This document shows positions 24,905-50,344 of a DNA stretch of 64,000 bases, one piece after another (within the stretch, counting starts at the first letter, position 1; the number at the start of each line of letters is the position of its first letter). A program made the position numbers and the translations under genes. Source of the stretch: a virus (lineage: Duplodnaviria; Heunggongvirae; Uroviricota; Caudoviricetes); the IMG/VR virus record IMGVR_UViG_3300007169_000056. One strand, 5' to 3'. The notes beneath the pieces are model-generated. The model worked only from the letters and a program-made list of their open reading frames with translations. It ran no database searches and was not told the origin of the DNA.

Positions 24905-24932
24905 TTGACTTTTCAAAAAACTCTGGTACATT
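24905..24932 (+). promoter_or_regulatory. sigma70-like promoter (TTGACT, 16 nt, TACATT) placed for a leaderless ligase mRNA
   Basis: -10 ends 6 nt before the ATG at 24939. Confidence 0.45.
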
Positions 24933-31598: not shown

Positions 31599-31859
31599 AT
31601 GACACCACAGATTTCATTTAGAAAACAATTCAGCGAATGCACTGATGCTGGATTCTGTAACAACACAGTTTTTGAATCATTTGAAGAACATCCTGAAAAC
31701 CTTCCTGCGTTTTTGTTTTTGCCAAAATTTGACAAGATGCGAAAAGCCATTGAAACTGGCGAATTGAAAGGTTTCGACAAAATTCTCTGCGGACGATTCG
31801 GTGGAGATTGTCATTCTGGCAACCCGGAATGTAGAAAACTTCGTGGATTTTCAGATTGA
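31599..31859 (+). CDS. small Cys-containing hypothetical protein
   Basis: start trimmed; 31505-31597 encodes a 30-aa TM peptide upstream. Confidence 0.3.
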   Translation: MTPQISFRKQFSECTDAGFCNNTVFESFEEHPENLPAFLFLPKFDKMRKAIETGELKGFDKILCGRFGGDCHSGNPECRKLRGFSD

Positions 31860-31884
31860 CCTTTTGGAATTACTGTGTTAGTGT

Positions 31885-32403
31885 ATGGTTGTTATGGAAA
31901 ATACAAAACAAAATACTGTGGTTCGTCCTAAATTTGACCCCAATAAAATTGACAGGAATCACAAGGCATTCAAGACTTTGGTCGATCAATATCAGCGGTG
32001 GTCCCAATCTGGTGACATTGACGAGTCCCGTGAGACATATGAAAACGATATCATCGGCTGTCTGGGTCATTATAACCTTGATGGATATCAGTTGGCTAAA
32101 CGTCTTGAATCCACAGTGTATCTTGAAGCTGATAGCGAATTGGTCGGTATTCTCGATGATCTGTTTTTTGTTAAGGATTCACTTGTACGTTCCATGTTGA
32201 AAACGTGGGTAGACGAAAACTCTCTTACAATCGACCCATCGGTGGTGGGTAAGAAGGTTAATGCCAAACAGGGATTTCATAAATACGAAAACCACTATAT
32301 TACTGGTATCAGATCCGAAACTTACGAAGTTACTATCAGTACCGAAACGGGCAAAAATGGAGGATTCGTTATTGCTTACGAAAACATTCAATTTGTTGAC
32401 TGA
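31885..32403 (+). CDS. hypothetical protein
   Basis: ORF only. Confidence 0.4.
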   Translation: MVVMENTKQNTVVRPKFDPNKIDRNHKAFKTLVDQYQRWSQSGDIDESRETYENDIIGCLGHYNLDGYQLAKRLESTVYLEADSELVGILDDLFFVKDSLVRSMLKTWVDENSLTIDPSVVGKKVNAKQGFHKYENHYITGIRSETYEVTISTETGKNGGFVIAYENIQFVD

Positions 32404-33784: not shown

Positions 33785-34744
33785 ATGAAGGAAAAGACTG
33801 CTAAGCCCGCAGATGTGGGCGTTATTGTTGGCCGGTTTCAGGTCAACGAACTTCATGAGGCTCATATTGACCTCATCAATTCTGTTGCTCAGAAGCATGA
33901 TCGGGTGCTTCTTTTCTTGGGTAACAGCATCATCCGGAATACCACCTCTAATCCACTTGACTATCGGGCACGTCGTGCCATGATTGCTGACAAGTTTCCG
34001 AACGTCGAGGTGCATTACATCAATGATCATCCATCAGATGCTGTATGGTCTAAAAATCTTGACAAGCAGATCACAGAACAACTGCTTCCGCTTCAGACGG
34101 TTACACTGTATGGTAGCCGTGATAGTTTTCTCAAAGCATACAGCGGAAAGTTCAACGTATGTGAACTTGAGGCGACCACGTTTATCAGTGGTACCGAGGT
34201 TCGTCGTCGAGTTTGTAACAATTATCCTCCCACAGCTGACTATCGTGCCGGAATGATTGCAGCCACCGCATATCGTTATCCTACGGCGTTTCAGACTGTA
34301 GACATCGCTGTTGTGAACGACAAGCGAGAGATTCTGCTGGCCCGTAAGCCCGATGAAAAGAAGTGGCGATTCATTGGAGGTTTCAGCGATCCTCGTAGTC
34401 CATCGCTTGAGGCAGACGCAAAGCGTGAGGTAAGTGAGGAAGCCGGTATTGAAGTGGATGGCATTACGTATCTTGGATCTACGTTGATTGATGATTGGCG
34501 TTATCGTGGTGAACAGGACAAGATCAAGACTGCTCTGTTTGTTGCCAAGTATATGTACGGAAAGCCAGAGGGTGCTGATGACATTGCTGAAGTCAAGTGG
34601 GTTCCAATTGGTACCGGACTCAGCAAGGACAACGTTGAACCTCTTCACCATGTTTTGGTGGATATGTTCAACGATAAGTTTGGCGGAAATCGTGATCTTC
34701 AAGACAAGTTTTTTCAGCCAAATGTTGACGGTAATATGACTTAA
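33785..34744 (+). CDS. bifunctional NMN adenylyltransferase / Nudix hydrolase (NadM-Nudix type)
   Basis: N-terminal GRFQVNELHEAH cytidylyltransferase motif; C-terminal Nudix box GGFSDPRSPSLEADAKREVSEEAGIE. Confidence 0.7.
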   Translation: MKEKTAKPADVGVIVGRFQVNELHEAHIDLINSVAQKHDRVLLFLGNSIIRNTTSNPLDYRARRAMIADKFPNVEVHYINDHPSDAVWSKNLDKQITEQLLPLQTVTLYGSRDSFLKAYSGKFNVCELEATTFISGTEVRRRVCNNYPPTADYRAGMIAATAYRYPTAFQTVDIAVVNDKREILLARKPDEKKWRFIGGFSDPRSPSLEADAKREVSEEAGIEVDGITYLGSTLIDDWRYRGEQDKIKTALFVAKYMYGKPEGADDIAEVKWVPIGTGLSKDNVEPLHHVLVDMFNDKFGGNRDLQDKFFQPNVDGNMT

Positions 34745-34751
34745 AAATTAT

Positions 34752-35063
34752 ATGAAAACATTCAAAGTTTGGGCGTGTACTGCCAATCGTGATCAAACCG
34801 AAGGACGTGGACCTAGTTATGACGTATGTTATGCTGAGACCCGTGAAGTTGCGCTAAAAATCGTAAACAACCCATTGTTCTACGGAAAGTATGGTGTGAT
34901 GGGTTGCCAACCCTTCGATGGTGGCAAGTACGATGTTAGTGAACGAGAAATGTTTGTTTATGAAAGCATTTCTGAATATTTGGAAAGTGAAAAGAATGCC
35001 GAAATCAAAGCAGCTTTGAACAAGCTGTCTGACAAGGAAAAGAAACTGTTGGGTTTGATGTAA
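34752..35063 (+). CDS. small hypothetical protein
   Basis: ORF between the NMNAT and NAMPT genes. Confidence 0.4.
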   Translation: MKTFKVWACTANRDQTEGRGPSYDVCYAETREVALKIVNNPLFYGKYGVMGCQPFDGGKYDVSEREMFVYESISEYLESEKNAEIKAALNKLSDKEKKLLGLM

Positions 35064-35069
35064 AACACC

Positions 35070-35097
35070 TTGACTTTGAGTGAAGTTGAGGTACAAT
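35070..35097 (+). promoter_or_regulatory. sigma70-like promoter (TTGACT, 16 nt, TACAAT) upstream of NAMPT
   Basis: consensus-like hexamers; 68-nt leader with AAGGA SD. Confidence 0.55.
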
Positions 35098-35165
35098 GAA
35101 AGAGTAGAAACGTAGTAAAGATTAAGGTACAGATAAAATCATTACAACAAAAGGAAAATAAGATT

Positions 35166-36785
35166 ATGAATAAGTATAATATTGGTGACACTGTTATGAT
35201 TTCGACCGATTTGATGGATAATTCGGCGGGATCTATTAGACAAGTTGCAGAAGTGTTTCGTAACGACAATGTGGTTCGTTATTTGCTAACTGGTACTCGC
35301 GCTCTCTATAACGAGAATGAACTCACCCGACCTACCAAGAAGCAGATTGAAGACGCCAAGAATGGCAATTCGATCCGCAATGGATCGTTTGTCAAGAACA
35401 TTTGTTTGACTACAGATTCGTATAAGTTGAATCACTGGAATCAGTATCCCAAGGGCACCGAGAAGGTTTATAGTTACTTTGAGTGCCGTAAGGGTGCTAA
35501 GTTTGCTGAGACTCCGTTCTTCGGACTTCAGTATATTATCAAGAACCACCTTGAAGGCGTGGTTGTGACCCGCGAGAAGATTGAGAAGGCTGCCAAGTTG
35601 TGTAAGGCACATTTTGGTGACGAGAAGTATTTTAACCGTGAAGGTTGGGAGTACATTCTGAACAACTTTGGTGGTAAGTTGCCGGTTGTTATTAAGGCCG
35701 TTGAGGAGGGAACCGTGGTTCCTATCAACAATGTGTTGATGACTATTGAGAATACCGGTGGATGGGAAACCGCTTGGTTGACCAACTTCCTTGAGACGAT
35801 TTTGTCTCAGGTTTGGTATCCTATTACTGTGGCGTCTTTGTCCCGAGAAGTGAAGATGAATATCAAGGAGTATCTTGACCTCACTTCGGATGGTGGTCTT
35901 CTCAATTTCGGACTGCACGATTTTGGTTTCCGAGGCGCATCTTCGTGGGAGACTGCTGGTATTGGTGGTGCTGCCCACCTGATTAACTTCCTCGGCACCG
36001 ATACGGTTGTGGCTATGGAAGTGGCAATCAACTACTATAATGCCAACCTTGATGGTCTGGCGTATAGTGTGGCGGCTACCGAACACAGTGTTATGACTGC
36101 CCTTGGTAGGGATGGGGAGGTTGCTGTGGTTGAAAGTCTTCTCAATGAATATCCTACGGGTATTCTGTCTGTTGTTGCCGATAGTTACGACATTTATAAC
36201 TTTGTTGATAACATTGTTGGAAAGAAATTCAAGGATCGTATTTTGGCACGTAAGGGTGTGTTTGTGGTTCGTCCCGATAGTATCACTCCTACTCACCAGA
36301 CTCCCGAGGAGGAGATGGTGTGGATCATGGAATCCTTGTGGAAGAACTACGGTGGCACGGTGAACAGTAAGGGATATAAGTTGATCAATCCTTCTGTCCG
36401 TGTGTTGTGGGGTGACGGCATTGATCTTGATGGTATCAAGAAGATTCTGTATGCTGTTACCAAGGCGGGATTTGCCACGGAGAATATCGCTTGTTTTGGT
36501 ATGGGTGGGGGTCTTCTCCAGAAGGTCAATCGTGACACTCAACGCTGTGCTTTCAAGTGTAGTGCTCAGTACCGTGATGGTCAGTGGTATGACATTCAGA
36601 AGAATCCCAAGGACGTTTCTAAGGCTTCTAAGAAAGGTCGTCTCAAGTTGACTAAGGTTGATGGTAAGTTTGTTACTGTCAATGAAAACGATCCCGGTGA
36701 GGATTATTTGAAGGTTGTGTTTACGAATGGTGTGTTGGTCAAGGAAATTGATTTTGACACTGTTCGCAAGAACGCTGCTCTGTAA
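35166..36785 (+). CDS. nadV: nicotinamide phosphoribosyltransferase (NAMPT / NadV)
   Basis: 539 aa; GLHDFGFRGASS and other NAMPT-family motifs. Confidence 0.85.
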   Translation: MNKYNIGDTVMISTDLMDNSAGSIRQVAEVFRNDNVVRYLLTGTRALYNENELTRPTKKQIEDAKNGNSIRNGSFVKNICLTTDSYKLNHWNQYPKGTEKVYSYFECRKGAKFAETPFFGLQYIIKNHLEGVVVTREKIEKAAKLCKAHFGDEKYFNREGWEYILNNFGGKLPVVIKAVEEGTVVPINNVLMTIENTGGWETAWLTNFLETILSQVWYPITVASLSREVKMNIKEYLDLTSDGGLLNFGLHDFGFRGASSWETAGIGGAAHLINFLGTDTVVAMEVAINYYNANLDGLAYSVAATEHSVMTALGRDGEVAVVESLLNEYPTGILSVVADSYDIYNFVDNIVGKKFKDRILARKGVFVVRPDSITPTHQTPEEEMVWIMESLWKNYGGTVNSKGYKLINPSVRVLWGDGIDLDGIKKILYAVTKAGFATENIACFGMGGGLLQKVNRDTQRCAFKCSAQYRDGQWYDIQKNPKDVSKASKKGRLKLTKVDGKFVTVNENDPGEDYLKVVFTNGVLVKEIDFDTVRKNAAL

Positions 36786-36832
36786 TTGAATTGCCACAAA
36801 GGTTTACGGTTATCCTTCACACAAAACCGTTC

Positions 36833-36861
36833 TTGACTTTCTATAAACATCGTGGTAAGCT
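36833..36861 (+). promoter_or_regulatory. repeated promoter element copy 1 (TTGACTTTCTATAAACATCGTGGTAAGCT)
   Basis: matches 26 of 28 nt of the 38509 copy; -10 ends 6 nt before the ATG at 36868. Confidence 0.5.
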
Positions 36862-36867
36862 GATTGT

Positions 36868-37077
36868 ATGATGAAATACAACCTTGCTCTCAAAACTGGT
36901 GGATTGATGGAAGATCCTGAATGGCATTACGACAACATTCGTGTAATTGAAGCGGATAATTTGATTGATGCAAAAAACAAATACGCTGAACTTACAGGAC
37001 TTGTTGATAAGCCACATTGGAATGCAAATCAACAGACATATTTTGGATGGCATATTGTTGCATTGACAGAAGAATAA
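36868..37077 (+). CDS. small hypothetical protein
   Basis: ORF right after promoter copy 1. Confidence 0.4.
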   Translation: MMKYNLALKTGGLMEDPEWHYDNIRVIEADNLIDAKNKYAELTGLVDKPHWNANQQTYFGWHIVALTEE

Positions 37078-37101
37078 GTGGTTATAAATCAAAGTAACTC
37101 T

Positions 37102-37278
37102 ATGGAACAAACTCCATACGATAAAGGACGTGCGTATTGTAAAAATACGCATGGAATGAACAAATATCTTGAGGACAACCCGTATGATCCTAAAACAGAG
37201 GAATATACTCAGTGGAGAGAAGGATTCCAAGACGAACGGGTATCGCATCTTGAAGGATATGAAGAATACTACTCTTGA
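37102..37278 (+). CDS. small hypothetical protein
   Basis: preceded by aaagtaactctATG, identical to the 37873-37886 leader. Confidence 0.35.
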   Translation: MEQTPYDKGRAYCKNTHGMNKYLEDNPYDPKTEEYTQWREGFQDERVSHLEGYEEYYS

Positions 37279-37308
37279 CTTTCTACAAACACAGTGATAG
37301 TGTATAAT
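37275..37308 (+). promoter_or_regulatory. repeated promoter element copy 2 (TTGACTTTCTACAAACACAGTGATAGTGTATAAT)
   Basis: same TTGACTTTCTAYAAACA core; TATAAT 3 nt before the ATG at 37312. Confidence 0.4.
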
Positions 37309-37311
37309 CAC

Positions 37312-37527
37312 ATGAACATCATTAGCATCATCAATACGAATACAGTTAAAGACATTCCTGATGCCCTGCGGGCTTTGGCTAATATCGTGGAAAAGGATAT
37401 TGCTATTCAAGGTTGCAGAGCAAATTCTATAGGAATGTTCGGGGAAATTGATAGTGTATCAGGCGATTTTGATTATCAAATTCAACAAACTAATTTCACA
37501 AGCCTTTCTGAGTCGGTGATAAACTAA
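37312..37527 (+). CDS. small hypothetical protein
   Basis: start trimmed to the Met after the -10 element. Confidence 0.35.
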   Translation: MNIISIINTNTVKDIPDALRALANIVEKDIAIQGCRANSIGMFGEIDSVSGDFDYQIQQTNFTSLSESVIN

Positions 37528-37531
37528 AAAT

Positions 37532-37852
37532 ATGAGTTATCTAGGTGAAACAGTGGTGGATGTATCTACACATCCAGAATTCAAACATTATACAGCCAAT
37601 GATTGGGCAATGTCTTTTATTTCAAGATATGGTCAAATTGACGGTGCTCACCACAAAACGTGGGTATTGGATCAGGTTGCGCGATGTTTGAAAAATACAC
37701 CGATTGTAGTTTTAGAAGCTCGATGGACAGATCACGAATCGGAATATCGTATTCTCACAGGAGAACCCAGTGAAGAATACAAAGAATGGGTCAAGGACAT
37801 GACGAGTGGAGTCAACGAGGGATACGACTACGACACAGGAATTGCTCCTTGA
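37532..37852 (+). CDS. small hypothetical protein
   Basis: AGGA-like SD; its stop lies inside the next promoter copy. Confidence 0.4.
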   Translation: MSYLGETVVDVSTHPEFKHYTANDWAMSFISRYGQIDGAHHKTWVLDQVARCLKNTPIVVLEARWTDHESEYRILTGEPSEEYKEWVKDMTSGVNEGYDYDTGIAP

Positions 37853-37877
37853 CTCTCTATAATCTTCTTGGTAAAGT
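37849..37877 (+). promoter_or_regulatory. repeated promoter element copy 3 (TTGACTCTCTATAATCTTCTTGGTAAAGT)
   Basis: TTGACT, 17 nt, TAAAGT; ATG 6 nt after the -10. Confidence 0.45.
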
Positions 37878-37883
37878 AACTCT

Positions 37884-38372
37884 ATGAAAAATATTATTCC
37901 TCAAGACCGTGTGCTTAAACTGAACGACCCCAACGTCACAAAGCGTGAATATGACGCTATTATTGGAGAAATTGGAGAACGTGTGGATTATGTTTGGCGT
38001 AAACTATTGAAGATTTCGGGTCGTAGACTTAATTGGTATGCATTCCAGAACGACGTTGAGTATAATGATGGTGATGGAAGCAGTGGTGGAAGTTTTGATC
38101 CAGAAACCGATGGTGAATTCATTGAACTTTCGGGTGATTATGCAAGTAGGGAAGTTGATGGTGATTTTGCAACGGGATTTCCCACCCGTTTTTTGTGGAC
38201 CGATGACGATATTTGGACGAAAGAGGTTTTGGACCATGTTGATCAAAACAAGAAACTGAAAGAATCAGCGAAACAAAAGGCTGAACTTTCTAAGGTTGCT
38301 CGCACCAAGATTATTGAGTCAATCAAGAGTAAGTTGACCAAGGAAGAACTGAAGTACGTATCATTCAAATAA
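37884..38372 (+). CDS. hypothetical protein
   Basis: ORF after promoter copy 3. Confidence 0.4.
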   Translation: MKNIIPQDRVLKLNDPNVTKREYDAIIGEIGERVDYVWRKLLKISGRRLNWYAFQNDVEYNDGDGSSGGSFDPETDGEFIELSGDYASREVDGDFATGFPTRFLWTDDDIWTKEVLDHVDQNKKLKESAKQKAELSKVARTKIIESIKSKLTKEELKYVSFK

Positions 38373-38375
38373 TTT

Positions 38376-38522
38376 ATGGTTGAAACCGATATCACAAAAC
38401 GTTGGGAGCAAGGCATTCGTCATCATCCAAAAAGCATTGAAATCTTAAAAGCTATCATGAACAATGGATGGAAGACGAAAGAAATTCTAAAAACAAAACA
38501 TGTTGTGATTGACGTTCTATAA
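38376..38522 (+). CDS. small hypothetical protein (48 aa)
   Basis: hand-translated MVETDITKRWEQGIRHHPKSIEILK...; stop lies inside promoter copy 4. Confidence 0.3.
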   Translation: MVETDITKRWEQGIRHHPKSIEILKAIMNNGWKTKEILKTKHVVIDVL

Positions 38523-38537
38523 ACATCGTGGTAGGAT
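38509..38537 (+). promoter_or_regulatory. repeated promoter element copy 4 (TTGACGTTCTATAAACATCGTGGTAGGAT)
   Basis: 26 of 28 nt identical to copy 1; ATG 9 nt after the -10. Confidence 0.5.
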
Positions 38538-38546
38538 ATTGAAACT

Positions 38547-38861
38547 ATGAAGATCAAAACTTTTGTCATCGTTGTTGCTTCCATCGTCACTCTCACCGGA
38601 TGTCGTGGCCGCAACGATCCACAAACAAAGGCAAATAATTGGGTCAATGTCAATAATCCTGAATTTGTTGTGGATACTCCCAAGGGTAAACTGTTCCGAA
38701 TTTGGATTGATATGGGTGCAGGAAACCACCCGGATCGTATTTACTTTTTTGAAAATGCCACCAACAATACTATCAGTGTCAACAAAACTATCAGTAACGG
38801 AAAAAGCTCACATACCGAGACGATTGTGGTGATCGATGGTGTTGAGTATATTCGTAAGTAA
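38547..38861 (+). CDS. small lipoprotein
   Basis: signal peptide plus lipobox LTGCRG. Confidence 0.4.
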   Translation: MKIKTFVIVVASIVTLTGCRGRNDPQTKANNWVNVNNPEFVVDTPKGKLFRIWIDMGAGNHPDRIYFFENATNNTISVNKTISNGKSSHTETIVVIDGVEYIRK

Positions 38862-38866
38862 ACAAT

Positions 38867-39373
38867 ATGAGTGAAGAATCCAAAGAGTTCCGAAATGTTC
38901 ATTCCGCCAAGTTTTATCTCAACATTTACGTTGAACGTGGGCGTGATCTACGAGTAATTCGCAATATTCCAATTGATGAGATCGGACGTTTTGATGTGTG
39001 GCAATGTGTTTTTGAGAAGGAGCCAGAAGCATATCGGGAGCTTTGTGTCAAAGAATGGTATAATGATAACCTTAAATCGTCAGACAACGATGATGTAAAC
39101 AAATTCCGGTTGGAGTTCTCTGTTTACAGACTTATTCAACTTGAAGAATGGAACACTTCATTTACCGTGCAAGATGCGATTAAGATCATTTTTGATTGTT
39201 ATGGAACAGAGTGTTTGCCATTTCTCATTGAAAAAGCAGAAAAATGTGTGGAATCTCGAAAAGAAATTGTCAAGCCATATTACAAGCCCGACAACGAATG
39301 GGTTGGGTTTGCAGAAAGAGTATTAGAAAAATTGAAACAGTATGAACGACACTACACAGAAAAGGACCATTGA
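38867..39373 (+). CDS. hypothetical protein
   Basis: ORF only. Confidence 0.4.
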   Translation: MSEESKEFRNVHSAKFYLNIYVERGRDLRVIRNIPIDEIGRFDVWQCVFEKEPEAYRELCVKEWYNDNLKSSDNDDVNKFRLEFSVYRLIQLEEWNTSFTVQDAIKIIFDCYGTECLPFLIEKAEKCVESRKEIVKPYYKPDNEWVGFAERVLEKLKQYERHYTEKDH

Positions 39374-39485
39374 CGATGTTTGTGGTCAACCGAAAGGATC
39401 ATTTCAGAAGTTTTTACAAACGATTGAACTTGAAAACAAGCAATCCGAAGAACGAAGATCAGAAAGAATCAGAAAGCATATCAAT

Positions 39486-40268
39486 ATGAAGAATTTGTCA
39501 AACGAAATTGTGCAGTGGATCAAGGATTATGCCACCAAAAACAACCGTAAGTCGCTGGTCGTGGGTGTATCGGGTGGTGTGGACAGTGCGCTTGTGAGCA
39601 CTCTGTGTGCCATGACAGGTCTACCTACGCATTGTGTAGTGATGCCGTGTCAGACCAAGACAGATCAAACGGATCGTGGTAACAAGCACATTGAATGGCT
39701 TCGCAGCAAATTTGATAATGTTTACTACGAGTGTGTAGACCTTACCAACACGTTTGAAGCGTTTCAACGTGTGACCACCACTTGCTATCACAATAAATTG
39801 GGCTATGCCAACAGCAAGAGTCGGCTTCGCATGGTAACTTTGTATCAGATTGCCACGGCTACTAACGGTTTGGTTGTTGGAACCGGCAACAAGGTTGAAG
39901 ATTTTGGTGTGGGTTTCTTTACCAAATATGGTGACGGTGGTGTGGACATCAGCCCTATTGGAGATCTGCTCAAGAGCGAAGTGCGAACCATGTGTCGTGC
40001 TTTGGGAGTTCTTCCAGAACTTAGTGAAGCTGTTCCTACCGATGGACTGTGGGACGATACTCGTACCGACGAGGATCAAATTGGTGCTACGTATGACGAA
40101 TTGGAATGGGCTATGGAGTTTTTTGAATCAAACGATCCAGGCGACATTCATTTGTGGGGAGGCGAAGTGACCACTCGTCAGCGTGAAGTTCTTGCCATTT
40201 ACGACAAGTGGCACAATGCTGGTGCTCACAAATTGGCCCCAATTCCAGTCTTTGTGCGAAATGCGTAA
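39486..40268 (+). CDS. nadE: NH3-dependent NAD+ synthetase
   Basis: PP-loop SGGVDSALVSTLC; FFTKYGDGGVDISPIGDLLKSEV and the C-terminal region align with NadE; maximal ORF starts at 39342 but 39486 gives the canonical length. Confidence 0.75.
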   Translation: MKNLSNEIVQWIKDYATKNNRKSLVVGVSGGVDSALVSTLCAMTGLPTHCVVMPCQTKTDQTDRGNKHIEWLRSKFDNVYYECVDLTNTFEAFQRVTTTCYHNKLGYANSKSRLRMVTLYQIATATNGLVVGTGNKVEDFGVGFFTKYGDGGVDISPIGDLLKSEVRTMCRALGVLPELSEAVPTDGLWDDTRTDEDQIGATYDELEWAMEFFESNDPGDIHLWGGEVTTRQREVLAIYDKWHNAGAHKLAPIPVFVRNA

Positions 40269-45116: not shown

Positions 45117-45299
45117 ATGAATAGTATAACATCTGATATAGAAAAAATCATTAAAGATGGAAAAGGTTGGGGATCAGCATGGTATAGTCATGATGACAAG
45201 GTTCAATTGGATGGCACATTCTCAATTCAAGTATTGAGAGATATTGCCGATTTGGTTGAACGATGTATAAAGGAAGCTTCCAATAAACAGAAGGATTGA
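45117..45299 (+). CDS. small hypothetical protein
   Basis: start trimmed; ends in the AAGGATTGATATG junction. Confidence 0.35.
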   Translation: MNSITSDIEKIIKDGKGWGSAWYSHDDKVQLDGTFSIQVLRDIADLVERCIKEASNKQKD

Positions 45300-45300
45300 T

Positions 45301-45513
45301 ATGAAAAAACCAACCATCGTCACGACTGAACATCAAAGAAAATGGAACAAAGAAACTGTGGGAGTCACTCATATTGTTAGATATGATACTGAGTCAGAAC
45401 GCAGTTTTGTTACCAAAATAGATAAAGATACTGGCGAAGAACATTTTGATCATTGGGAGACACCAGATTTCCGACAACTAATCAAAGAAAAATACAATAT
45501 TGATGTCAAATAA
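45301..45513 (+). CDS. small hypothetical protein
   Basis: bounded by conserved junctions. Confidence 0.4.
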   Translation: MKKPTIVTTEHQRKWNKETVGVTHIVRYDTESERSFVTKIDKDTGEEHFDHWETPDFRQLIKEKYNIDVK

Positions 45514-45521
45514 GGATTGAT

Positions 45522-45767
45522 ATGAATGAAGATTACAATGTGCTTGGATTTGTGGCATTTATAAAGAATGGTGAACGCCACTATGGATGTCGTGGAAGAG
45601 GAAAAGACTATGATGATTTTTATGGTAGATTTCTAAATGGAAAATCATACAAATGCACTTCAGAAGATTTTCCTTGGGATTATTTTATATTCACTGATAT
45701 TAATGATGAACAACTCTTCTTGAAAGAATATTCATCAAAAATAGACTTTATAACTTCCGAGGATTGA
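45522..45767 (+). CDS. small hypothetical protein
   Basis: bounded by conserved junctions. Confidence 0.4.
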   Translation: MNEDYNVLGFVAFIKNGERHYGCRGRGKDYDDFYGRFLNGKSYKCTSEDFPWDYFIFTDINDEQLFLKEYSSKIDFITSED

Positions 45768-45768
45768 T

Positions 45769-46254
45769 ATGAATGATTCTAAACTACCAGATTGCATTGA
45801 CGATCAAGGACATTATTTTAAGACGTGTTCTAGGTGTGCATATATGGTATGTAGACGGTGCAACGCTCAATCTTATGATCATACATTAGGTATGTGTTCA
45901 ACCTATGGAGATTTTAGTGGAACAACAGCGGAATATGATAGATATTGTGATAGATGTGAACGATTATTGCAAAGGGGACGACCAACAGTGTATTCTCACT
46001 CATTCAAGTGTTATGAAGATTGGGAACAACATAGAATAGTTACCGGTGATATAATATGTAGACAATGTGACGGCAATGGATATTATATGACATATGGGAA
46101 TGAACCACGCAAATGTTGTAGTTGTGAAGGAACTGGCAAGTTTCCATCTCCAAGCCGTATTAAATACTTAGAGAGAATAAAAAAAGAAAAAAGTGAATAT
46201 CCTAAAGAAATGACTTCGTGGGATCTTTTCCTACAGTTATTCAAACTAAAATAA
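45769..46254 (+). CDS. Cys-rich zinc-finger protein
   Basis: multiple CxxC pairs (CSRCAYMVCRRC, CDRCE, CRQCDGNG, CCSCEGTG). Confidence 0.4.
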   Translation: MNDSKLPDCIDDQGHYFKTCSRCAYMVCRRCNAQSYDHTLGMCSTYGDFSGTTAEYDRYCDRCERLLQRGRPTVYSHSFKCYEDWEQHRIVTGDIICRQCDGNGYYMTYGNEPRKCCSCEGTGKFPSPSRIKYLERIKKEKSEYPKEMTSWDLFLQLFKLK

Positions 46255-46259
46255 TTGAT

Positions 46260-46739
46260 ATGACACAACCAGATACGGCGGATTTCTATTTGACCGCAAT
46301 AAAAAACAACAAAGAACGAAAAGAAAAAGAAAAGCACGAACAAAAAGAGCGTAATAGAACATATAAATCAACGCATCATCCTTGTGGTTGTAGAAATGAT
46401 GCGCCTCATTCTATACAATGTATTGAATATGATGTTGATAAAGGATTCAAAAACAGATTTATTGAACGTCATCCTAACTGGTATGATTCAGATGAATATT
46501 TTACATTGAATTTCAATACCACTGATGAATTGTTGCAATGTGAATATGTTGCTAGATATAAAAAAGACACTGATGCTGACAAATTTTACCAATATTCACT
46601 ATCAATAGACAAATATAGCCCGCCAATGTTGATGGCTGAGTATAATAATGGAACCAGTTGGTGGTGTCTTGGTAAACTACGAACAACCGATGGATTAAAT
46701 TTGCCAAAATGGGAACCTGTATACAAAAAGAAGGATTGA
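46260..46739 (+). CDS. hypothetical protein
   Basis: start trimmed to the junction ATG. Confidence 0.4.
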   Translation: MTQPDTADFYLTAIKNNKERKEKEKHEQKERNRTYKSTHHPCGCRNDAPHSIQCIEYDVDKGFKNRFIERHPNWYDSDEYFTLNFNTTDELLQCEYVARYKKDTDADKFYQYSLSIDKYSPPMLMAEYNNGTSWWCLGKLRTTDGLNLPKWEPVYKKKD

Positions 46740-46740
46740 T

Positions 46741-46980
46741 ATGAAAATACAAAATATAAACACGTCGTGGAAAAATCAAAATGCAATAGATGATGATATG
46801 TGTAATTATGCTATTCAGATTAGCAAACCAACCGGAAAAATAGGCTTTTATGAAAACGTAACACTGAAAGATAAATATCTCAATATAGAAACAGCAGTGC
46901 AAAAAGCCACCGAAGTTCAAAACGTATTAAAAGCAATAGATTCGTACATCCAAGTTTCAGTGGTAGAAGGATTGATATGA
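46741..46980 (+). CDS. small hypothetical protein
   Basis: bounded by conserved junctions. Confidence 0.4.
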   Translation: MKIQNINTSWKNQNAIDDDMCNYAIQISKPTGKIGFYENVTLKDKYLNIETAVQKATEVQNVLKAIDSYIQVSVVEGLI

Positions 46981-47252
46981 AATACAAAACATTTGCGGAT
47001 GCTATGAATGATGGATGGTCATTGGTGCCTATAGACAAAGAAATTGCACAAATAGGAACTTATTATTCATATTGGAAAAAGGATGGCAAAGTATTGTGTG
47101 AGGACGAGTTGATTGAAAATTGGACCATGAACAATTCACACCAACAACTAACTACTATTTCTGAAAAATGGAAGCACATATTTCCGCCCAATGAACCGTC
47201 TGGTCCGATGAAGCCAATTCTCATTGAAGGACAACAGAAAAAATTGATATGA
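46977..47252 (+). CDS. small hypothetical protein
   Basis: ATGA start/stop overlap junctions. Confidence 0.4.
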   Translation: MKYKTFADAMNDGWSLVPIDKEIAQIGTYYSYWKKDGKVLCEDELIENWTMNNSHQQLTTISEKWKHIFPPNEPSGPMKPILIEGQQKKLI

Positions 47253-47503
47253 ATGAAAAACTAATAAACGTTGGTGATTGTTGTGTGGCTATCAAGGCTA
47301 TCAATTTAGATAAATCATCTCATGATGAAATCGATGCCTATGGTAAAGCTAATAACTTGACAATAGTATATGCTGACTGGCATCCAAATCCTGAATATCG
47401 TATATCAAAAACTGGTAGTTTTTTGAGTCAAAATAAAAAATATCCAAGCGGACTAATTTTAGTGGATAATAAAGGAGAACCACATCCATACAAAAAAGAT
47501 TGA
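47249..47503 (+). CDS. small hypothetical protein
   Basis: bounded by conserved junctions. Confidence 0.4.
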   Translation: MNEKLINVGDCCVAIKAINLDKSSHDEIDAYGKANNLTIVYADWHPNPEYRISKTGSFLSQNKKYPSGLILVDNKGEPHPYKKD

Positions 47504-47504
47504 T

Positions 47505-47690
47505 ATGACCCGTAAAGAAGAACTAGAATATAGACTTAAACAAATTGGTAATAGAATAATTGAGCATGGACGAGATGCTGCATTAAAAGGAATATCCATT
47601 GATGATAATCCGTGGAAAGGATTTTCACATGAGTTCCATATTTGGCGAAACGGTTGGATATTTGAAACCAATTTGAAAAAAGAGGATTAA
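47505..47690 (+). CDS. small hypothetical protein
   Basis: bounded by conserved junctions. Confidence 0.4.
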   Translation: MTRKEELEYRLKQIGNRIIEHGRDAALKGISIDDNPWKGFSHEFHIWRNGWIFETNLKKED

Positions 47691-47691
47691 T

Positions 47692-48174
47692 ATGAAAACA
47701 ATACCCATAAAAATTGGAGGATCTACACTGGTAGGTTATGTTGCTGACAGTTATCCAATCGACGGTGGCAATTGTTTTGATTTGATTGATACCGATGGTA
47801 GTAGACATCGTGTTGTAAACTTTGGATATGAGAATCTAAAAGAGTGGATGAAACGAACTGGACAGACTGATATTATGGTTCGTTGTATTCCAAAATCAGA
47901 TAAATTGTGGGAGATTTGTGATGAACGTATACCCAAAGAGTGGTATAGCAGTGAATATTGCACAGTTTGCACTCCTATTAGGATGTTGCCGTTTGAGCAG
48001 CGTAAACAATATGTCAAAAACAAGAAGTTTACAAAGACAAAAGATGGAGATTTAATAATTTCTACGACTCTTGTTCCACAAGCCAGAAAATTGAATTTCA
48101 AATGGGCGACTGAAATTGAACAAAATATGGTATACGCCCATTATATACCAATAATCAAAAACAAAATGATATGA
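47692..48174 (+). CDS. hypothetical protein
   Basis: bounded by conserved junctions. Confidence 0.4.
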   Translation: MKTIPIKIGGSTLVGYVADSYPIDGGNCFDLIDTDGSRHRVVNFGYENLKEWMKRTGQTDIMVRCIPKSDKLWEICDERIPKEWYSSEYCTVCTPIRMLPFEQRKQYVKNKKFTKTKDGDLIISTTLVPQARKLNFKWATEIEQNMVYAHYIPIIKNKMI

Positions 48175-48353
48175 GCCGCAAGATTTTAAAGAACTATTGT
48201 TTTGAATTAGACAATTTTGAACGAGGTATAAACAAACGAATGCAAATTATTGTATCCGATTACAATTTGAAAAATGCTAAAAACCAAGTAAAAAAAATGT
48301 TGGGTAAGATTGTAGCAGATAAAATGACATTAGAGTTTTCAGAAAAGGCTTGA
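48171..48353 (+). CDS. small hypothetical protein
   Basis: bounded by conserved junctions. Confidence 0.35.
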   Translation: MSRKILKNYCFELDNFERGINKRMQIIVSDYNLKNAKNQVKKMLGKIVADKMTLEFSEKA

Positions 48354-48354
48354 T

Positions 48355-48573
48355 ATGACTTATGAAGATAAATTAAATGAGTTGAAATTAAAAGGTTATG
48401 ATAGTTCAAATATTAATAATGTGATTGAATACAAGTGCAGCAATCCAGAGTGTGATGTTGTTAATTATGGAACGACATTTTCTTTTTATGCATATACATT
48501 GTATGGCAAACCAAAAGGTGGATGCCGCGTATGTAAATCACCAATAGAAATTACAGTAATTAATGAAAATTGA
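48355..48573 (+). CDS. small zinc-ribbon protein
   Basis: CSNPEC ... CRVCKSP. Confidence 0.4.
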   Translation: MTYEDKLNELKLKGYDSSNINNVIEYKCSNPECDVVNYGTTFSFYAYTLYGKPKGGCRVCKSPIEITVINEN

Positions 48574-48574
48574 T

Positions 48575-48847
48575 ATGTCAATAGTAAATTATATGATATA
48601 CGGTGGGTATAAAGAAATACCACGGGAAGAATATTATGAGTGGTTCAAAAACGCCTCTATCATAAGAGAAGAAAGTTTTGTAATTTCAAATTTTTGCGGA
48701 CCCCACGAATTTTCCACTACTATCAGTAAAAATGGAATGACTTATGAGTTGGGATGGGGATGGCATGTAGAAAATGGTAAAACCATAGACTGGTATGGAG
48801 TAAGAAAACTACACACAGATCATAATCAAAATGGAAACGGTATATGA
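48575..48847 (+). CDS. small hypothetical protein
   Basis: start trimmed to the junction ATG. Confidence 0.4.
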   Translation: MSIVNYMIYGGYKEIPREEYYEWFKNASIIREESFVISNFCGPHEFSTTISKNGMTYELGWGWHVENGKTIDWYGVRKLHTDHNQNGNGI

Positions 48848-49260
48848 CCACAAAAACACATATAGTATGTCCTGCGTGCAATAAACCCACCGGAGAGATT
48901 GATCATTTTGTAGATTTTAACAAGTCAGTTAAAACACGATGGTATTGTGATAGTTGTATGACGGACTTGGAATATAATAAAGCAATCATATTAAATAATT
49001 TTACAGAAGAACAATATAGAGAATTGTTTGAGGGTCCGGACTATGATTTGAAACTCATACGAGCGGCAAAAAAATATAAACTTAGAATGGATAAAGAAGT
49101 GTTAACTGAGTATCTTACGGAACAATTAATTCATGCGAGTTCCGGAGAATATATTGGGGAGGGTTATCACGGAGGGTTATCATGTGAAGAATGGAGACGT
49201 AGAAGAATTTGTTTGGAACAATGTTTAGCCGAATTAAATAGTATAAATGAAGAGAATTAA
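48844..49260 (+). CDS. zinc-finger hypothetical protein
   Basis: CPACNKP ... CDSCMTD. Confidence 0.4.
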   Translation: MTTKTHIVCPACNKPTGEIDHFVDFNKSVKTRWYCDSCMTDLEYNKAIILNNFTEEQYRELFEGPDYDLKLIRAAKKYKLRMDKEVLTEYLTEQLIHASSGEYIGEGYHGGLSCEEWRRRRICLEQCLAELNSINEEN

Positions 49261-49261
49261 T

Positions 49262-49513
49262 ATGACCAAAACACAACTAAAAAAAATCAAAGAACTTGAC
49301 GCATTTCTAAAACAAAGAAAGATGGAATTGCGAGGAAGTGATATTATTATGGGGTTTAATATGCAGACGTATGGAACTGAAAAGCATGTTCAACTAAATC
49401 TAGATATAGGATATATCAGAGGCAGCGACTCTGATATTCAAGAACTAAACAAAATACCAAAAATAAAAGAACATTATCATATTGACAAAAATGGAAAATT
49501 AAAATCATATTAA
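49262..49513 (+). CDS. small hypothetical protein
   Basis: start trimmed to the junction ATG. Confidence 0.4.
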   Translation: MTKTQLKKIKELDAFLKQRKMELRGSDIIMGFNMQTYGTEKHVQLNLDIGYIRGSDSDIQELNKIPKIKEHYHIDKNGKLKSY

Positions 49514-49517
49514 TGAG

Positions 49518-49949
49518 ATGATAATACCCAATACTTCATGTAGAAGTGCTACGAGTTTGTTCACAAATGAAGAATTGACTGTCTGGTGCAAAAATAACGG
49601 TGGACATTATGCACAAGAAAATGAACTAAACAGTGTGTTTTTTGAACAACAATATGAACAATGTGTTGAGGTTTATAATACACTTGATCCAGATTTTATC
49701 CGAAAATATGATCATCTAAATGATTTTCTTGATATTCATAGAACCAATATCGCTAGATACAATCGTTATATCACAAGAAAGAATAACAACATTCGGTTTG
49801 ATATATTTGACGGCGATCCATTTATTTCTGGATTGGATTTAATATATAATTCCAACAGATTTGTGATCAAAGACGTGTATACAAAACCAAGTATTATTTC
49901 ATTTCGATATGTAATAGATGGTAGAAGATCCGACAAACAAAAAGATTGA
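49518..49949 (+). CDS. hypothetical protein, paralog B-prime (FTNEELTVWCKNNGGHYAQENEL)
   Basis: shares motifs with the 44115 gene. Confidence 0.4.
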   Translation: MIIPNTSCRSATSLFTNEELTVWCKNNGGHYAQENELNSVFFEQQYEQCVEVYNTLDPDFIRKYDHLNDFLDIHRTNIARYNRYITRKNNNIRFDIFDGDPFISGLDLIYNSNRFVIKDVYTKPSIISFRYVIDGRRSDKQKD

Positions 49950-49950
49950 T

Positions 49951-50142
49951 ATGACTGAAAAAGGATATACATTAAATGAGATGTTGGAAAACAGCAGAAT
50001 ACTTGCGAGTGAAATCAAAAAGGATAATTTTCCAATAGAAGGCACCACTGAAAAAGATTATATGATAGTTGGTAACATTGCTGTTTACACACCGTATATT
50101 CCATTGTATACTACACCTTTAATAACAGATAAGAAGGATTGA
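49951..50142 (+). CDS. small hypothetical protein
   Basis: bounded by conserved junctions. Confidence 0.4.
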   Translation: MTEKGYTLNEMLENSRILASEIKKDNFPIEGTTEKDYMIVGNIAVYTPYIPLYTTPLITDKKD

Positions 50143-50143
50143 T

Positions 50144-50344
50144 ATGAAGATCAAAGTAATTAAGCAATACGATCCCATCAAATTTACAGAGGCGGTAAAT
50201 AATCATTTAACTGATGGATGGCAATTATTTGGAGAACCAAAAATTGAAACAGTTGTAGAACAAAAGATGTGGGATGGTGATCCATATAGCGTAACCCATA
50301 CTGTATATCATCAAATAGTAAAAACCGGAAAAAATGAAAACTAA
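50144..50344 (+). CDS. small hypothetical protein
   Basis: bounded by conserved junctions. Confidence 0.4.
   Translation: MKIKVIKQYDPIKFTEAVNNHLTDGWQLFGEPKIETVVEQKMWDGDPYSVTHTVYHQIVKTGKNEN

What the first reader, a model, noticed from the sequence alone, without database searches (positions are those of the whole stretch)
36833..38537. Family of near-identical promoter elements with a conserved 17-nt spacer in front of consecutive small genes
Copy 1 at 36833 (TTGACTTTCTATAAACATCGTGGTAAGCT) and copy 4 at 38509 (TTGACGTTCTATAAACATCGTGGTAGGAT) are identical at 26 of 28 positions. Copies 2 at 37275 (TTGACTTTCTACAAACACAGTG...) and 3 at 37849 (TTGACTCTCTATAATCTTCTTGGTAAAGT) share the TTGACT, TCTAYAA core. 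A fifth partial copy lies at 37085-37104 (the same aaagtaactctATG leader as 37873-37886). A sigma70 promoter needs only the hexamers. Conservation of the spacer (TTCTATAAACATCGTGG) implies an additional sequence-specific factor: an activator, a repressor or a phage-modified RNA polymerase. The TCTATAAACA segment also loosely resembles the TATAAATA late-promoter box of T4-type phages. Each copy sits immediately before a small ORF of unknown function.
Basis: seen in the sequence. Interest (0 to 1): 0.6.

Follow-up and report, generated by a model that had tools for sequence, protein, structure and literature searches.

The report
Leaderless early-promoter cassettes in a phage
Four near-identical bacterial-type promoters sit in a gene-shuffling hotspot of a large uncultured freshwater phage, each pressed so close to the next gene's ATG that the mRNA should have almost no leader; this is a compact variant of known phage early promoters, not evidence for a new transcription factor.

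Summary
Four copies of TTGACN-TCTAYAA-...-TGN-TAnnnT lie at 36833, 37275, 37849 and 38509 (0.28 expected by chance). They are the local, recently copied sub-variant of a promoter class found throughout this phage clade, seen in the window and in about 800 kb of related lake-metagenome contigs. The class consensus is an upstream A-tract, TTGACT, a TTyT..AAA spacer, tgTGG (extended -10) and TAnnnT.

The new point is the geometry. In 61 of 158 independent sites the next ATG lies 6-9 nt after the -10 hexamer (35 at exactly 6), which predicts leaderless or 3-nt-or-shorter-leader mRNAs. In 22 of 64 such sites the upstream gene's TGA stop is the TGA inside TTGAC. No Shine-Dalgarno signal is used.

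The cluster starts exactly where homology to all relatives ends. Five of its eight small genes are ORFans.

Spacer conservation does not require an extra factor. Its 3' part is the TGn element, its 5' part is class-wide composition, and the near-identity of copies 1 and 4 fits recent within-genome copying. A factor is not excluded.

The closest known systems are T4-type UP/-35/TGn/-10 early promoters, PeSL cassettes and the leaderless promoters of Thermus phages. No start-site data exist and the host is unknown.

The parts
36833..36861 (+). Promoter copy 1: -35 TTGACT (36833-36838), 17-nt spacer TTCTATAAACATCGTGG (TGG = extended -10), -10 TAAGCT (36856-36861). The ATG at 36868 lies 6 nt after the -10.
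   Evidence: PWM trained only on relatives scores 32.4 bits
37275..37303 (+). Promoter copy 2: TTGACT, spacer TTCTACAAACACAGTGA, -10 TAGTGT. The ATG at 37312 lies 8 nt after the -10. The TGA at 37276-37278 inside the -35 is the stop codon of ORF 37102-37278.
   Evidence: PWM 27.1 bits
37849..37877 (+). Promoter copy 3: TTGACT, spacer CTCTATAATCTTCTTGG, -10 TAAAGT. The ATG at 37884 lies 6 nt after the -10. The TGA at 37850-37852 inside the -35 is the stop codon of ORF 37532-37852.
   Evidence: PWM 20.6 bits
38509..38537 (+). Promoter copy 4: TTGACG, spacer TTCTATAAACATCGTGG, -10 TAGGAT. The ATG at 38547 lies 9 nt after the -10. The TAA at 38520-38522 inside the spacer is the stop codon of ORF 38376-38522.
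   Evidence: PWM 24.2 bits
37091..37107 (+). Partial (3'-half) copy: cAAAGT-AACTCT-ATG, a 16/17 match to 37873-37889. It has no correctly spaced -35 or TGn and lies at the start of ORF 37102-37278.
   Evidence: D4; no hit at this position among the PWM scores listed
36806..36830 (+). Small conserved hairpin (ACGGTT ... AACCGT) between the NAMPT stop and copy 1. In many relatives it is followed by a T-run, so it is terminator-like.
   Evidence: 5 pairs; one pair covaries G-C / A-U in 4 of 13 sequences; not significant on its own in a single-sequence fold
36868..37278 (+). Unit 1: ORFs 36868-37077 (69 aa) and 37102-37278 (58 aa). No family match and no homologue in related loci.
37312..37852 (+). 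Unit 2: ORF 37312-37527 (71 aa, ORFan) and ORF 37532-37852 (106 aa; phrog_23179, a widespread phage family of unknown function).
37884..38522 (+). Unit 3: ORF 37884-38372 (162 aa, ORFan) and ORF 38376-38522 (48 aa; homologue only in L006).
38547..40268 (+). Unit 4: ORF 38547-38861 (104 aa; N-terminus MKIKTFVIVVASIVTLTGC looks like a lipoprotein signal), ORF 38867-39373 (168 aa, ORFan), and NAD synthase NadE 39342-40268.
35070..35097 (+). Same promoter class, leadered version, in front of NAMPT: TTGACT-16-TACAAT. The -35 and spacer are buried in an 11-bp hairpin (35067-35092).
24905..24932 (+). Best-scoring class member in the window: TTGACT TTTCAAAAAACTCTGG TACATT, with the ATG of the DNA ligase gene (24939) 6 nt after the -10. 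Other class members start at 6339, 10114, 17060, 19742, 26334, 31856, 33677, 40708, 53294, 54944 and 58320.

Best explanation
The four elements are strong promoters for a housekeeping-sigma (sigma-70/sigmaA-type) RNA polymerase, most likely the host's. They probably act early in infection. Each drives a short unit of about two small accessory genes.

Recognition uses the -35 TTGACT, the extended -10 TGn and a TAnnnT -10 at 17-nt spacing. Because the -10 ends 6-9 nt before the ATG, transcription should begin at the A of the ATG or 1-3 nt before it. The first gene of each unit would then be translated from a leaderless or near-leaderless mRNA. The second gene follows without any Shine-Dalgarno sequence, like almost every gene in this phage.

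The promoter fills the whole intergenic space. The upstream gene's stop codon lies inside the -35 (TGA of TTGAC) or inside the spacer (TAA).

The spacer similarity has three layers:
- the TGn element;
- a class-wide T-rich then A-rich, unstructured composition shared by this promoter class across the phage clade;
- extra identity private to these four copies, which reflects recent copying or gene conversion of the promoter inside a hypervariable accessory-gene region.

Shown: sequence anatomy, statistics, conservation across relatives, and the synteny break. Inferred: promoter activity, start sites, early timing, host polymerase dependence, and copying by recombination.
For: - Motif significance.
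- Independent model: a PWM trained only on related loci finds 14 hits of at least 16 bits on the window's + strand, against 1 on the - strand and 0.1 in shuffles. The four copies are among the top 8.
- Class consensus from 76 non-redundant sites: A-tract upstream, TTGAC(T), T at spacer positions 1-4, AAA at positions 7-9, tgTGG, TAnnnT.
- Distance from the -10 to the next ATG, in 158 independent sites over about 860 kb: 35 at 6 nt, 8 at 7, 8 at 8, 10 at 9, and only 1 at 10. Of 64 ATGs at 5-9 nt, 58 open ORFs of at least 40 codons. For all TAnnnT in the window, 8.8% have the next ATG at 6-9 nt.
- TAnnnT whose first T lies about 12 nt before the start codon is the published in-silico signature of leaderless genes (PMC3160421; PMC12340547). 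Polymerase starts 6 nt after TANNNT in Thermus phages whose transcripts are leaderless (bioRxiv 10.64898/2026.04.20.719267).
- Stop inside the -35: 22 of 64 independent junctions.
- No Shine-Dalgarno enrichment: 18 genes with a core against 14.5 expected.
- Homology to all relatives ends at 36817-36858. Only 3 of the 8 small genes have homologues in relatives, and in a different order.
- Within-genome near-identical promoter pairs before unrelated genes: window 36833/38509, and L025 1808/2139 and 8116/11428. That is 4 of 189 within-locus pairs against 8 of 5465 between-locus pairs (Fisher p = 5e-4), and those 8 are the same paralogous pair seen on overlapping contigs.
- The strict sub-motif occurs 4 times within 1.7 kb here, but only 5 times, never clustered, in the related loci (a sixth match, L001, is a chance hit outside the clade).
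- The genes served elsewhere in the window are of early type: DNA ligase, NMNAT-Nudix, NAMPT.
Against: - There is no transcript start-site or timing data for this phage or any relative.
- The host is unknown, so 'host sigma-70' is an inference from the consensus. If the host were a Bacteroidota, whose primary sigma does not use TTGACA/TATAAT, a phage-encoded sigma would be needed.
- The -10 hexamers are weak by E. coli standards (TAAGCT, TAGGAT).
- Because the phage needs no Shine-Dalgarno sequence anywhere, close -10-to-ATG spacing could be mere compaction. It does not prove that translation actually starts on 5'-terminal AUGs.
- A promoter-specific role in recombination is only weakly supported. 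Promoter-bearing gene junctions carry homology breakpoints in 57 of 78 cases, against 492 of 765 for plain junctions.
- At the orthologous NAMPT promoter the 5' spacer is more conserved than the inner -10 positions. Spacer sequence can therefore be under selection for reasons not yet explained.
Confidence: 0.7

Rival explanations
1. A sequence-specific protein reads the spacer (TTCTATAAAC...) and co-regulates these genes. It could be a phage activator or repressor, an early shut-off factor, or a modified polymerase such as one altered by ADP-ribosylation of alpha, as T4 Alt does.
For: - The 5' half of the spacer carries class-wide information (T at positions 1-4, AAA at positions 7-9).
- At the orthologous NAMPT promoter the 5' spacer is nearly invariant across 27 variants while the inner -10 positions drift.
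- T4 Alt modification stimulates some early promoters through undefined sequence features (PMC2988021).
- The phage invests heavily in NAD supply, and NAD is the substrate of ADP-ribosyltransferases.
Against: - The spacer shows no dyad symmetry or discrete box, only a compositional T-then-A pattern.
- Different class members have unrelated spacers (TTGAGTGAAGT at NAMPT, AGCCTCCAATC at 26334).
- The residues that make copies 1 and 4 near-identical are not conserved in the class.
- No candidate DNA-binding gene was identified.
- The NAMPT spacer conservation is explained by a hairpin.
Confidence: 0.15
2. The spacer composition is selected at the RNA level. On read-through transcripts from upstream promoters, the promoter sequence becomes the 20-40 nt in front of an internal ATG that has no Shine-Dalgarno sequence. 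A U/A-rich, G-poor, unstructured stretch there would favour SD-independent initiation (ribosomal protein S1 or standby-type binding). The same 35 nt would then serve as promoter on DNA and as translation-initiation region on RNA.
For: - There is no terminator between units 1-4, so read-through is expected (one search lists none at the junctions).
- No Shine-Dalgarno use anywhere in the window.
- The ATG-abutting promoters are unusually unstructured (mean MFE -1.3 kcal/mol, mean z +0.39). Leadered class members often contain hairpins (25% with z below -1.5).
Against: - This is purely inferential.
- The same T/A pattern is seen in leadered class members (19742, 33677, 58320), where it is far from the ATG.
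- It does not explain the near-identity of copies 1 and 4.
Confidence: 0.1
3. The elements are primarily recombination modules, analogous to the PeSL (promoter-early stem-loop) cassettes of T4-type phages. Their sequence identity would be maintained because homologous exchange between copies moves ORFan cassettes in and out, with promoter function secondary.
For: - The cluster begins exactly at the end of homology with all relatives.
- The same upstream block plus a class promoter is followed by different genes in different genomes. Examples are L025 1808 versus L033 5855, with 20 of 21 promoter positions identical, and the window versus L006, L024 and L033 after NAMPT.
- Gene order is shuffled (L017 has the 38547 homologue before the 37532 homologue).
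- Near-identical paralogous promoters occur within genomes.
- The partial copy at 37091 looks like a crossover product.
Against: - Homology breakpoints are almost as frequent at gene junctions without promoters (64%) as at those with them (73%).
- The defining PeSL stem-loop is absent from these four copies.
- 29 nt of identity is short for homologous recombination.
- No mini-circle or junction data exist.
Confidence: 0.3
4. [quoted passage not shown]
For: - The host is unknown.
- The lack of Shine-Dalgarno sequences is typical of Bacteroidota and cyanobacteria. Bacteroidota primary sigma does not use TTGACA-type promoters (established knowledge).
- Distant relatives of the NAMPT gene occur in huge uncultured phages.
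Against: - The consensus A-tract/TTGACT/16-17/TGn/TAnnnT is a textbook housekeeping-sigma promoter.
- A separate single-box AT-rich motif (ATATTTAT) precedes structural-type genes and is the better candidate for a phage-specific sigma.
- No sigma or polymerase gene was seen in the window.
Confidence: 0.1

Closest known systems
T4-type phage early promoters ('uber' UP/-35/TGn/-10 promoters; Hinton 2010, PMC2988021; Nolan et al. 2006, PMC1524935)
   Same: - Many copies per genome, in front of small non-conserved early ORFs.
- An A-rich tract upstream of the -35.
- A -35 of the GTTGAC/TTGAC type.
- GT-rich/TGn sequence before the -10.
- Extra consensus outside the hexamers, attributed to optimised binding of unmodified host polymerase.
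   Different: - Here the -10 is a degenerate TAnnnT, not TATAAT.
- There is no Shine-Dalgarno sequence and essentially no 5' UTR, because the ATG lies 6-9 nt after the -10.
- The upstream stop codon is often embedded in the -35.
- No evidence was found that this phage is T4-related.
PeSL cassettes (promoter-early stem-loop) of T4-like phages (Arbiol et al. 2010, PMC2839356; Comeau et al. 2014, PMC4122927)
   Same: - Repeated, near-identical sigma-70-like early promoters.
- Concentrated in a hyperplastic region and flanking ORFans.
- Located at synteny breakpoints between close relatives.
- The start codon forms the 3' edge of the module.
   Different: - The four copies contain no stem-loop and no Shine-Dalgarno sequence.
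- Only a small hairpin lies upstream of copy 1.
- Recombination between copies is not demonstrated, and breakpoints are only slightly enriched over plain gene junctions.
- A true promoter-plus-hairpin composite does exist nearby, at the NAMPT promoter.
Leaderless transcription units of Thermus phages (phiYS40 and Lalka27a; bioRxiv 10.64898/2026.04.20.719267) and '-10 adjacent to ORF' genes of Deinococcus-Thermus and Actinobacteria (PMC12340547, PMC3160421, PMC3898074)
   Same: [quoted passage not shown] The TGn extension is common, and no ribosome-binding site is present.
   Different: - Those systems are high-GC or thermophilic and often lack a -35.
- Here a low-GC (about 38%) freshwater phage clade combines the leaderless geometry with a full -35, A-tract and TGn.
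- The -35 is fused to the preceding stop codon.
- Start sites are experimentally mapped there but not here.

Membership tests
Sigma-70-type (-35/TGn/-10) promoter | -35 hexamer close to TTGACA | tested here: met
   TTGACT in three copies and TTGACG in one; 5 of 6 matches
Sigma-70-type (-35/TGn/-10) promoter | Spacer of 17 +/- 1 nt to a -10 hexamer with T-12, A-11 and T-7 | tested here: met
   17 nt in all four copies; hexamers TAAGCT, TAGTGT, TAAAGT, TAGGAT
Sigma-70-type (-35/TGn/-10) promoter | Extended -10 TGn at -15 to -13 | tested here: met
   TGG, TGA, TGG, TGG. Class-wide, G at -14 occurs in 56 of 76 sites.
Sigma-70-type (-35/TGn/-10) promoter | Transcription initiates about 7 nt downstream of the -10 with primary-sigma holoenzyme | not testable with these tools
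   No RNA data are available and the host is unknown
T4-type early promoter class | A-rich UP-like tract at about -40 to -45 | tested here: inconclusive
   Class-wide, A occurs in 41-51 of 76 sites at the six positions 5-10 nt before the -35. Among the four copies it is only partial in copies 1 and 4, and copies 2-4 lie in upstream coding sequence.
T4-type early promoter class | Phage belongs to the T4-like group, and early timing is shown | not tested
   No T4 core gene was recognised among the roughly 50 window proteins scanned. No expression data exist.
PeSL (promoter-early stem-loop) cassette | Stable stem-loop within or overlapping the promoter | tested here: not met
   85-nt folds give z from -0.86 to +1.25. 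The -35 to -10 segments fold at 0 to -0.3 kcal/mol.
PeSL (promoter-early stem-loop) cassette | Shine-Dalgarno sequence plus start codon at the 3' end of the module | tested here: not met
   The start codon is present but there is no Shine-Dalgarno sequence; the gap is only 6-9 nt
PeSL (promoter-early stem-loop) cassette | Enriched in hyperplastic regions, flanking ORFans | tested here: met
   Homology to 35 relatives stops at 36817-36858, and 5 of 8 genes have no homologue
PeSL (promoter-early stem-loop) cassette | Copies recombine with each other (indels, mini-circles) | tested here: inconclusive
   Paralogous near-identical pairs and swapped downstream genes are seen. However, breakpoint excess over plain junctions is small: 73% against 64%.
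Leaderless ('TA-led') gene start | TAnnnT with its first T about 12 nt upstream of the initiation codon | tested here: met
   First T at -12, -14, -12 and -15 for the four copies. Class-wide mode is -12, with 35 of 158 independent sites.
Leaderless ('TA-led') gene start | No Shine-Dalgarno sequence, and an unambiguous start codon | tested here: met
   In-frame stops lie 3-4 codons upstream of ATG 36868, 37884 and 38547. Shine-Dalgarno cores are at background level.
Leaderless ('TA-led') gene start | Mapped 5' end at or within a few nt of the AUG | not testable with these tools
   Needs dRNA-seq or 5'-RACE
T4-type late promoter (TATAAATA) | TATAAATA box at -13 to -6 of a start site | tested here: not met
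   TCTATAAAC is not conserved in the class, where spacer positions 5-6 are variable. A different box, ATATTTAT, marks the structural-type genes.

The most novel reading that the evidence does not exclude
A clade of abundant, large freshwater phages may build much of its early genome from a portable 35-38-bp 'stop-promoter-start' junction. The preceding gene's TGA sits inside the -35. The spacer is an unstructured T/A-rich stretch that may double as an SD-independent translation region or as a factor site. The next gene's AUG is the first base transcribed. Such a module would let any ORF be dropped in and expressed with no other signal, and it would be copied and exchanged within and between genomes. 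That would make it a leaderless, stem-loop-free counterpart of PeSL cassettes in a low-GC phage, outside the Thermus and actinobacterial systems where leaderless phage expression is known.
Probability: 0.35. Interest if true: 0.6.

Novelty: new variant of a known kind. Interest (0 to 1): 0.45.

Why it matters
If start-site mapping confirms it, several things follow.
- This would be a compact and clean natural design for expressing accessory genes: about 35 bp containing stop, promoter and start.
- It would extend leaderless phage gene expression from thermophile and actinobacterial systems to a widespread low-GC freshwater phage clade.
- It gives a simple rule for annotation in such phages. 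TTGAC-16/17-TGnTAnnnT followed 6-9 nt later by ATG calls promoters, operon starts and true start codons. For example, it suggests 31894 rather than 31885 as a start.
- It provides a tractable set of natural spacer variants for asking what the promoter spacer contributes.
- It also tempers a tempting inference: repeated, near-identical promoters in a phage hotspot can reflect recent copying rather than a hidden regulator.

Tried and rejected
- Known phage relatives. There is no nucleotide match in 50,697 phage records. The 162-aa ORF has no tblastn hit. NAMPT and ligase are at most 47% and 37% identical to cultured phages. No annotated relative could be used.
- Exact look-up of the window's 162-aa protein in public assemblies: not on record.
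- Scan of viral contigs for the full motif: one chance hit with no -10.
- Host identification. The scan of bacterial genomes with NAMPT gave only distant or mis-binned MAG contigs from Planctomycetota, Verrucomicrobiota and Christensenella. No tRNAs were found. The host is left open.
- Known RNA families: none in the window at gathering score or at E up to 1.
- Repeated coding remnant: rejected, because the upstream ORFs end in different frames and their C-termini are unrelated.
- Stem-loops inside the four promoters (the PeSL criterion): none found.
- Promoter-specific recombination. The raw enrichment of homology ends near promoters (20-22% against 3.7% for random positions) largely disappeared when compared with ordinary gene junctions. 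The recombination role is therefore kept only as a secondary hypothesis.
- Resemblance to the T4 late box: rejected.
- NAD capping. The idea that all +1A leaderless transcripts link to the phage's NAD genes via NAD capping was considered. One paper shows that NAD-capped leaderless mRNA is translated normally in E. coli (PMC11514452). Nothing here tests the idea, so it was not pursued.
- Pfam and PHROG scans of the eight small ORFs gave only two families of unknown function, one of them a weak match.


Full report
**Observation**

The region 36833-38537 contains four + strand copies of TTGACN-NTCTAYAANC. The expectation is 0.28, and none of 100 shuffles reached four. The repeat finder groups them as one 25-nt family with 100, 84, 84 and 96% identity, spaced 442, 574 and 660 nt apart.

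Every copy has a 17-nt spacer, a TGN triplet directly before a TAnnnT hexamer, and an ATG 6, 8, 6 and 9 nt after that hexamer. In-frame stops a few codons upstream make ATG 36868, 37884 and 38547 the only possible starts.

The upstream ORFs end inside the element. For copies 2 and 3 the stop is the TGA of TTGAC. For copy 4 it is the TAA of CTATAA. These are in different frames, so the repeat is not a coding remnant.

The 'fifth copy' (37091-37107) is a 16/17 match. It covers only the end of the -10, the 6-nt gap and the ATG, and it has no properly spaced -35.

**Context**

The window is part of a large uncultured phage of about 38% G+C with almost all genes on one strand. It carries an NAD-salvage set:
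- NMNAT-Nudix at 33785
- NAMPT (nicotinamide phosphoribosyltransferase) at 35166
- NadE at 39342
- PRPP synthetase at 56181

It also carries DNA ligase, thymidylate kinase, an exonuclease, a collagen-like tail fibre and many small ORFs.

It has no close cultured relative. NAMPT recovered 51 related metagenome loci and 16 viral contigs at about 90% amino-acid identity, from contigs up to 248 kb and apparently mostly from lake samples.

**The four copies belong to a clade-wide promoter class**

I collected sites of the form TTGAC-16/17-TAnnnT followed closely by an ATG, from the window and its relatives. From 76 non-redundant sites the consensus is:
- an A-tract 5-10 nt upstream of the -35
- TTGAC(T)
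- T at spacer positions 1-4
- AAA at spacer positions 7-9
- tgTGG
- TAnnnT, with no preference at the inner positions

A weight matrix trained only on the relatives finds 14 sites of at least 16 bits on the window's + strand. It finds 1 on the - strand and 0.1 in shuffles. The four copies rank in the top eight. Other members precede the ligase gene (24905), NMNAT-Nudix (33677), NAMPT (35070) and further small ORFs.

The strict TCTAYAA sub-variant is private to this cluster. It occurs four times in 1.7 kb here, against five scattered matches across the related loci.

**Geometry**

I collapsed orthologous sites to 158 independent TTGAC-16/17-TAnnnT sites over about 860 kb. The next ATG lies at 6 nt in 35 sites, 7 nt in 8, 8 nt in 8, 9 nt in 10, and 10 nt in only 1. 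Of 64 close ATGs (5-9 nt), 58 open ORFs of at least 40 codons.

For any TAnnnT in the window, 8.8% have the next ATG at 6-9 nt. Conversely, 36 of 105 TAnnnT-N6-ATG gene starts carry TTGAC at the right distance, where about 0.3 would be expected.

A TAnnnT whose first T is about 12 nt before the initiation codon is the accepted computational signature of leaderless genes (PMC3160421, PMC12340547). Polymerase starts 6 nt after TANNNT in Thermus phages whose mRNAs are leaderless (bioRxiv 10.64898/2026.04.20.719267). I therefore infer transcripts that begin at the A of AUG for copies 1 and 3, or 2-3 nt before it for copies 2 and 4.

Shine-Dalgarno cores are at background level in the window, with 18 genes against 14.5 expected.

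In 22 of 64 independent junctions, the stop codon of the upstream ORF is the TGA inside TTGAC. The promoter is then the entire intergenic region.

**Hypervariable setting**

Nucleotide homology between the window and all 35 relatives that cover the site ends between 36817 and 36858. That is at a small conserved hairpin and copy 1.

Downstream, only three of the eight small genes have homologues in any relative, and these are in a different order. ORF 37532 belongs to phrog_23179, a widespread family. In L006 and L014 its homologue is the first gene, abutting a promoter; in the window and in L017 it is an internal gene. The other five genes are ORFans.

At the NAMPT junction the same upstream block is followed by a class promoter and then by different genes in the window, L006, L024 and L033. 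L025 and L033 share 20 of 21 variable promoter positions in front of unrelated genes.

**Why the spacers are alike**

Three layers can be separated.
1. TGG before the -10 is the extended -10 element.
2. The T-rich then A-rich 5' spacer is a class property. It parallels the 'additional regions of consensus' of T4 early promoters, which are interpreted as optimised polymerase contacts (PMC2988021, PMC1524935).
3. The further identity of copies 1 and 4 lies at positions that vary freely in the class. They share 18 of 21 variable positions. Copies 2 and 3 score 11-15 against the others.

Such near-identical pairs in front of unrelated genes recur within genomes (L025 1808/2139 and 8116/11428; the window). 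They were not seen between genomes once overlapping contigs are discounted: 4 of 189 against 8 of 5465, Fisher p = 5e-4. Recent copying or gene conversion is the economical explanation.

A dedicated spacer-binding factor is not required, and one factor for the whole class is unlikely because other members have unrelated spacers. It cannot be excluded. At the orthologous NAMPT promoter the 5' spacer is nearly invariant, although there it forms a conserved 11-bp hairpin with the -35.

The ATG-abutting promoters are the opposite: unusually unstructured, with mean MFE -1.3 kcal/mol and z +0.39. That would also suit SD-independent translation of the same ATG on read-through transcripts. I list this as a rival or complementary explanation.

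**Comparison with known systems**

The elements work like T4-type UP/-35/TGn/-10 early promoters, and they sit like PeSL cassettes in a hyperplastic region (PMC2839356, PMC4122927). They fail two defining PeSL features that I tested: there is no stem-loop and no Shine-Dalgarno sequence.

My test of promoter-specific recombination was weak. Breakpoints occur at 73% of promoter junctions against 64% of plain junctions. The raw enrichment had been 20-22% against 3.7% for random positions.

The leaderless geometry matches Thermus-phage and Deinococcus/actinobacterial '-10 adjacent to ORF' expression. Here, however, it appears in a low-GC freshwater phage, with a full -35 and with the stop codon fused into it. 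By contrast, mapped transcripts of the giant phages phiKZ and AR9 are not leaderless (PMC8244752, PMC5312081).

**Limits and verdict**

There are no start-site or timing data and the host is unknown. Host-polymerase dependence is inferred from the consensus.

The verdict is a real feature of moderate interest and a new variant of a known kind.

Noticed in passing
window 626, 2422, 3801, 9160, 11423, 13448(-), 14361, 15887, 18158 (and others): A second motif, ATATTTAT, occurs 20 times against 7.1 expected, with 13 copies in the first 18.2 kb. It often lies 4-7 nt before an ATG (641, 2437, 3816, 9174, 11435, and the collagen-like tail-fibre gene on the - strand at 13435). It looks like a single-box late-type promoter that also abuts start codons. 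It suggests 2437 rather than 2365 as a gene start.
   Followed up: partly
window 45293-50147: A junction motif, (A)GGATTGATATGA, occurs as 6 exact and 6 one-mismatch copies between consecutive small genes. It consists of the TGA stop, one nt, then the ATG of the next gene. Its AGGA is the only Shine-Dalgarno-like signal in the window. This may be a tandem family of small genes with a conserved coupling junction.
   Followed up: partly
window 35067-35097: The NAMPT promoter (TTGACT-16-TACAAT, roughly 70-nt conserved leader) has its -35 and spacer inside an 11-bp hairpin (-11.4 kcal/mol, z -4.6). The hairpin is conserved in 18 relatives with only one-sided (wobble) changes. The stop codon of the upstream gene is again the TGA of TTGAC. 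This is a genuine promoter-plus-stem-loop composite of the PeSL type.
   Followed up: partly
window 36806-36830: A conserved 5-6-bp hairpin lies after the NAMPT stop, with one covarying pair (G-C / A-U). In many relatives it is followed by a T-run and then directly by an ATG. It is a weak terminator-like element marking the end of the conserved block.
   Followed up: yes
window 38547-38861: The first gene behind copy 4 starts MKIKTFVIVVASIVTLTGC, which looks like a lipoprotein signal peptide with a lipobox. It may be a surface or exclusion protein. Homologues (57% identity) occur in L017 and L064.
   Followed up: no
window 35166-35393: NAMPT in this window carries about 76 extra N-terminal residues. 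In most relatives the match starts only at about residue 70-80. This could be a fused small domain or a mis-called start.
   Followed up: no
window 33785-40268 and 56181-57161: The window carries a full NAD-supply set: NMNAT-Nudix fusion, NAMPT, NAD synthase NadE and PRPP synthetase. NadE is absent from the 10 kb downstream of NAMPT in all relatives examined.
   Followed up: partly
L074 9992-10260 (contig BUCK21-1 scaffold_133): A truncated 65-aa copy of the 37532 gene (172 bp, 91% identical) sits in an otherwise unrelated context. It is followed about 25 nt after its stop codon by another class promoter. A TnpB/Cas12f-like gene lies about 5 kb upstream in the same phage contig.
   Followed up: partly
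window 31856-31896: The class promoter TTGACC-17-TAGTGT is immediately followed by ATG 31885. An in-frame ATG 9 nt after the -10 (31894) fits the class geometry better and is probably the true start.
   Followed up: no
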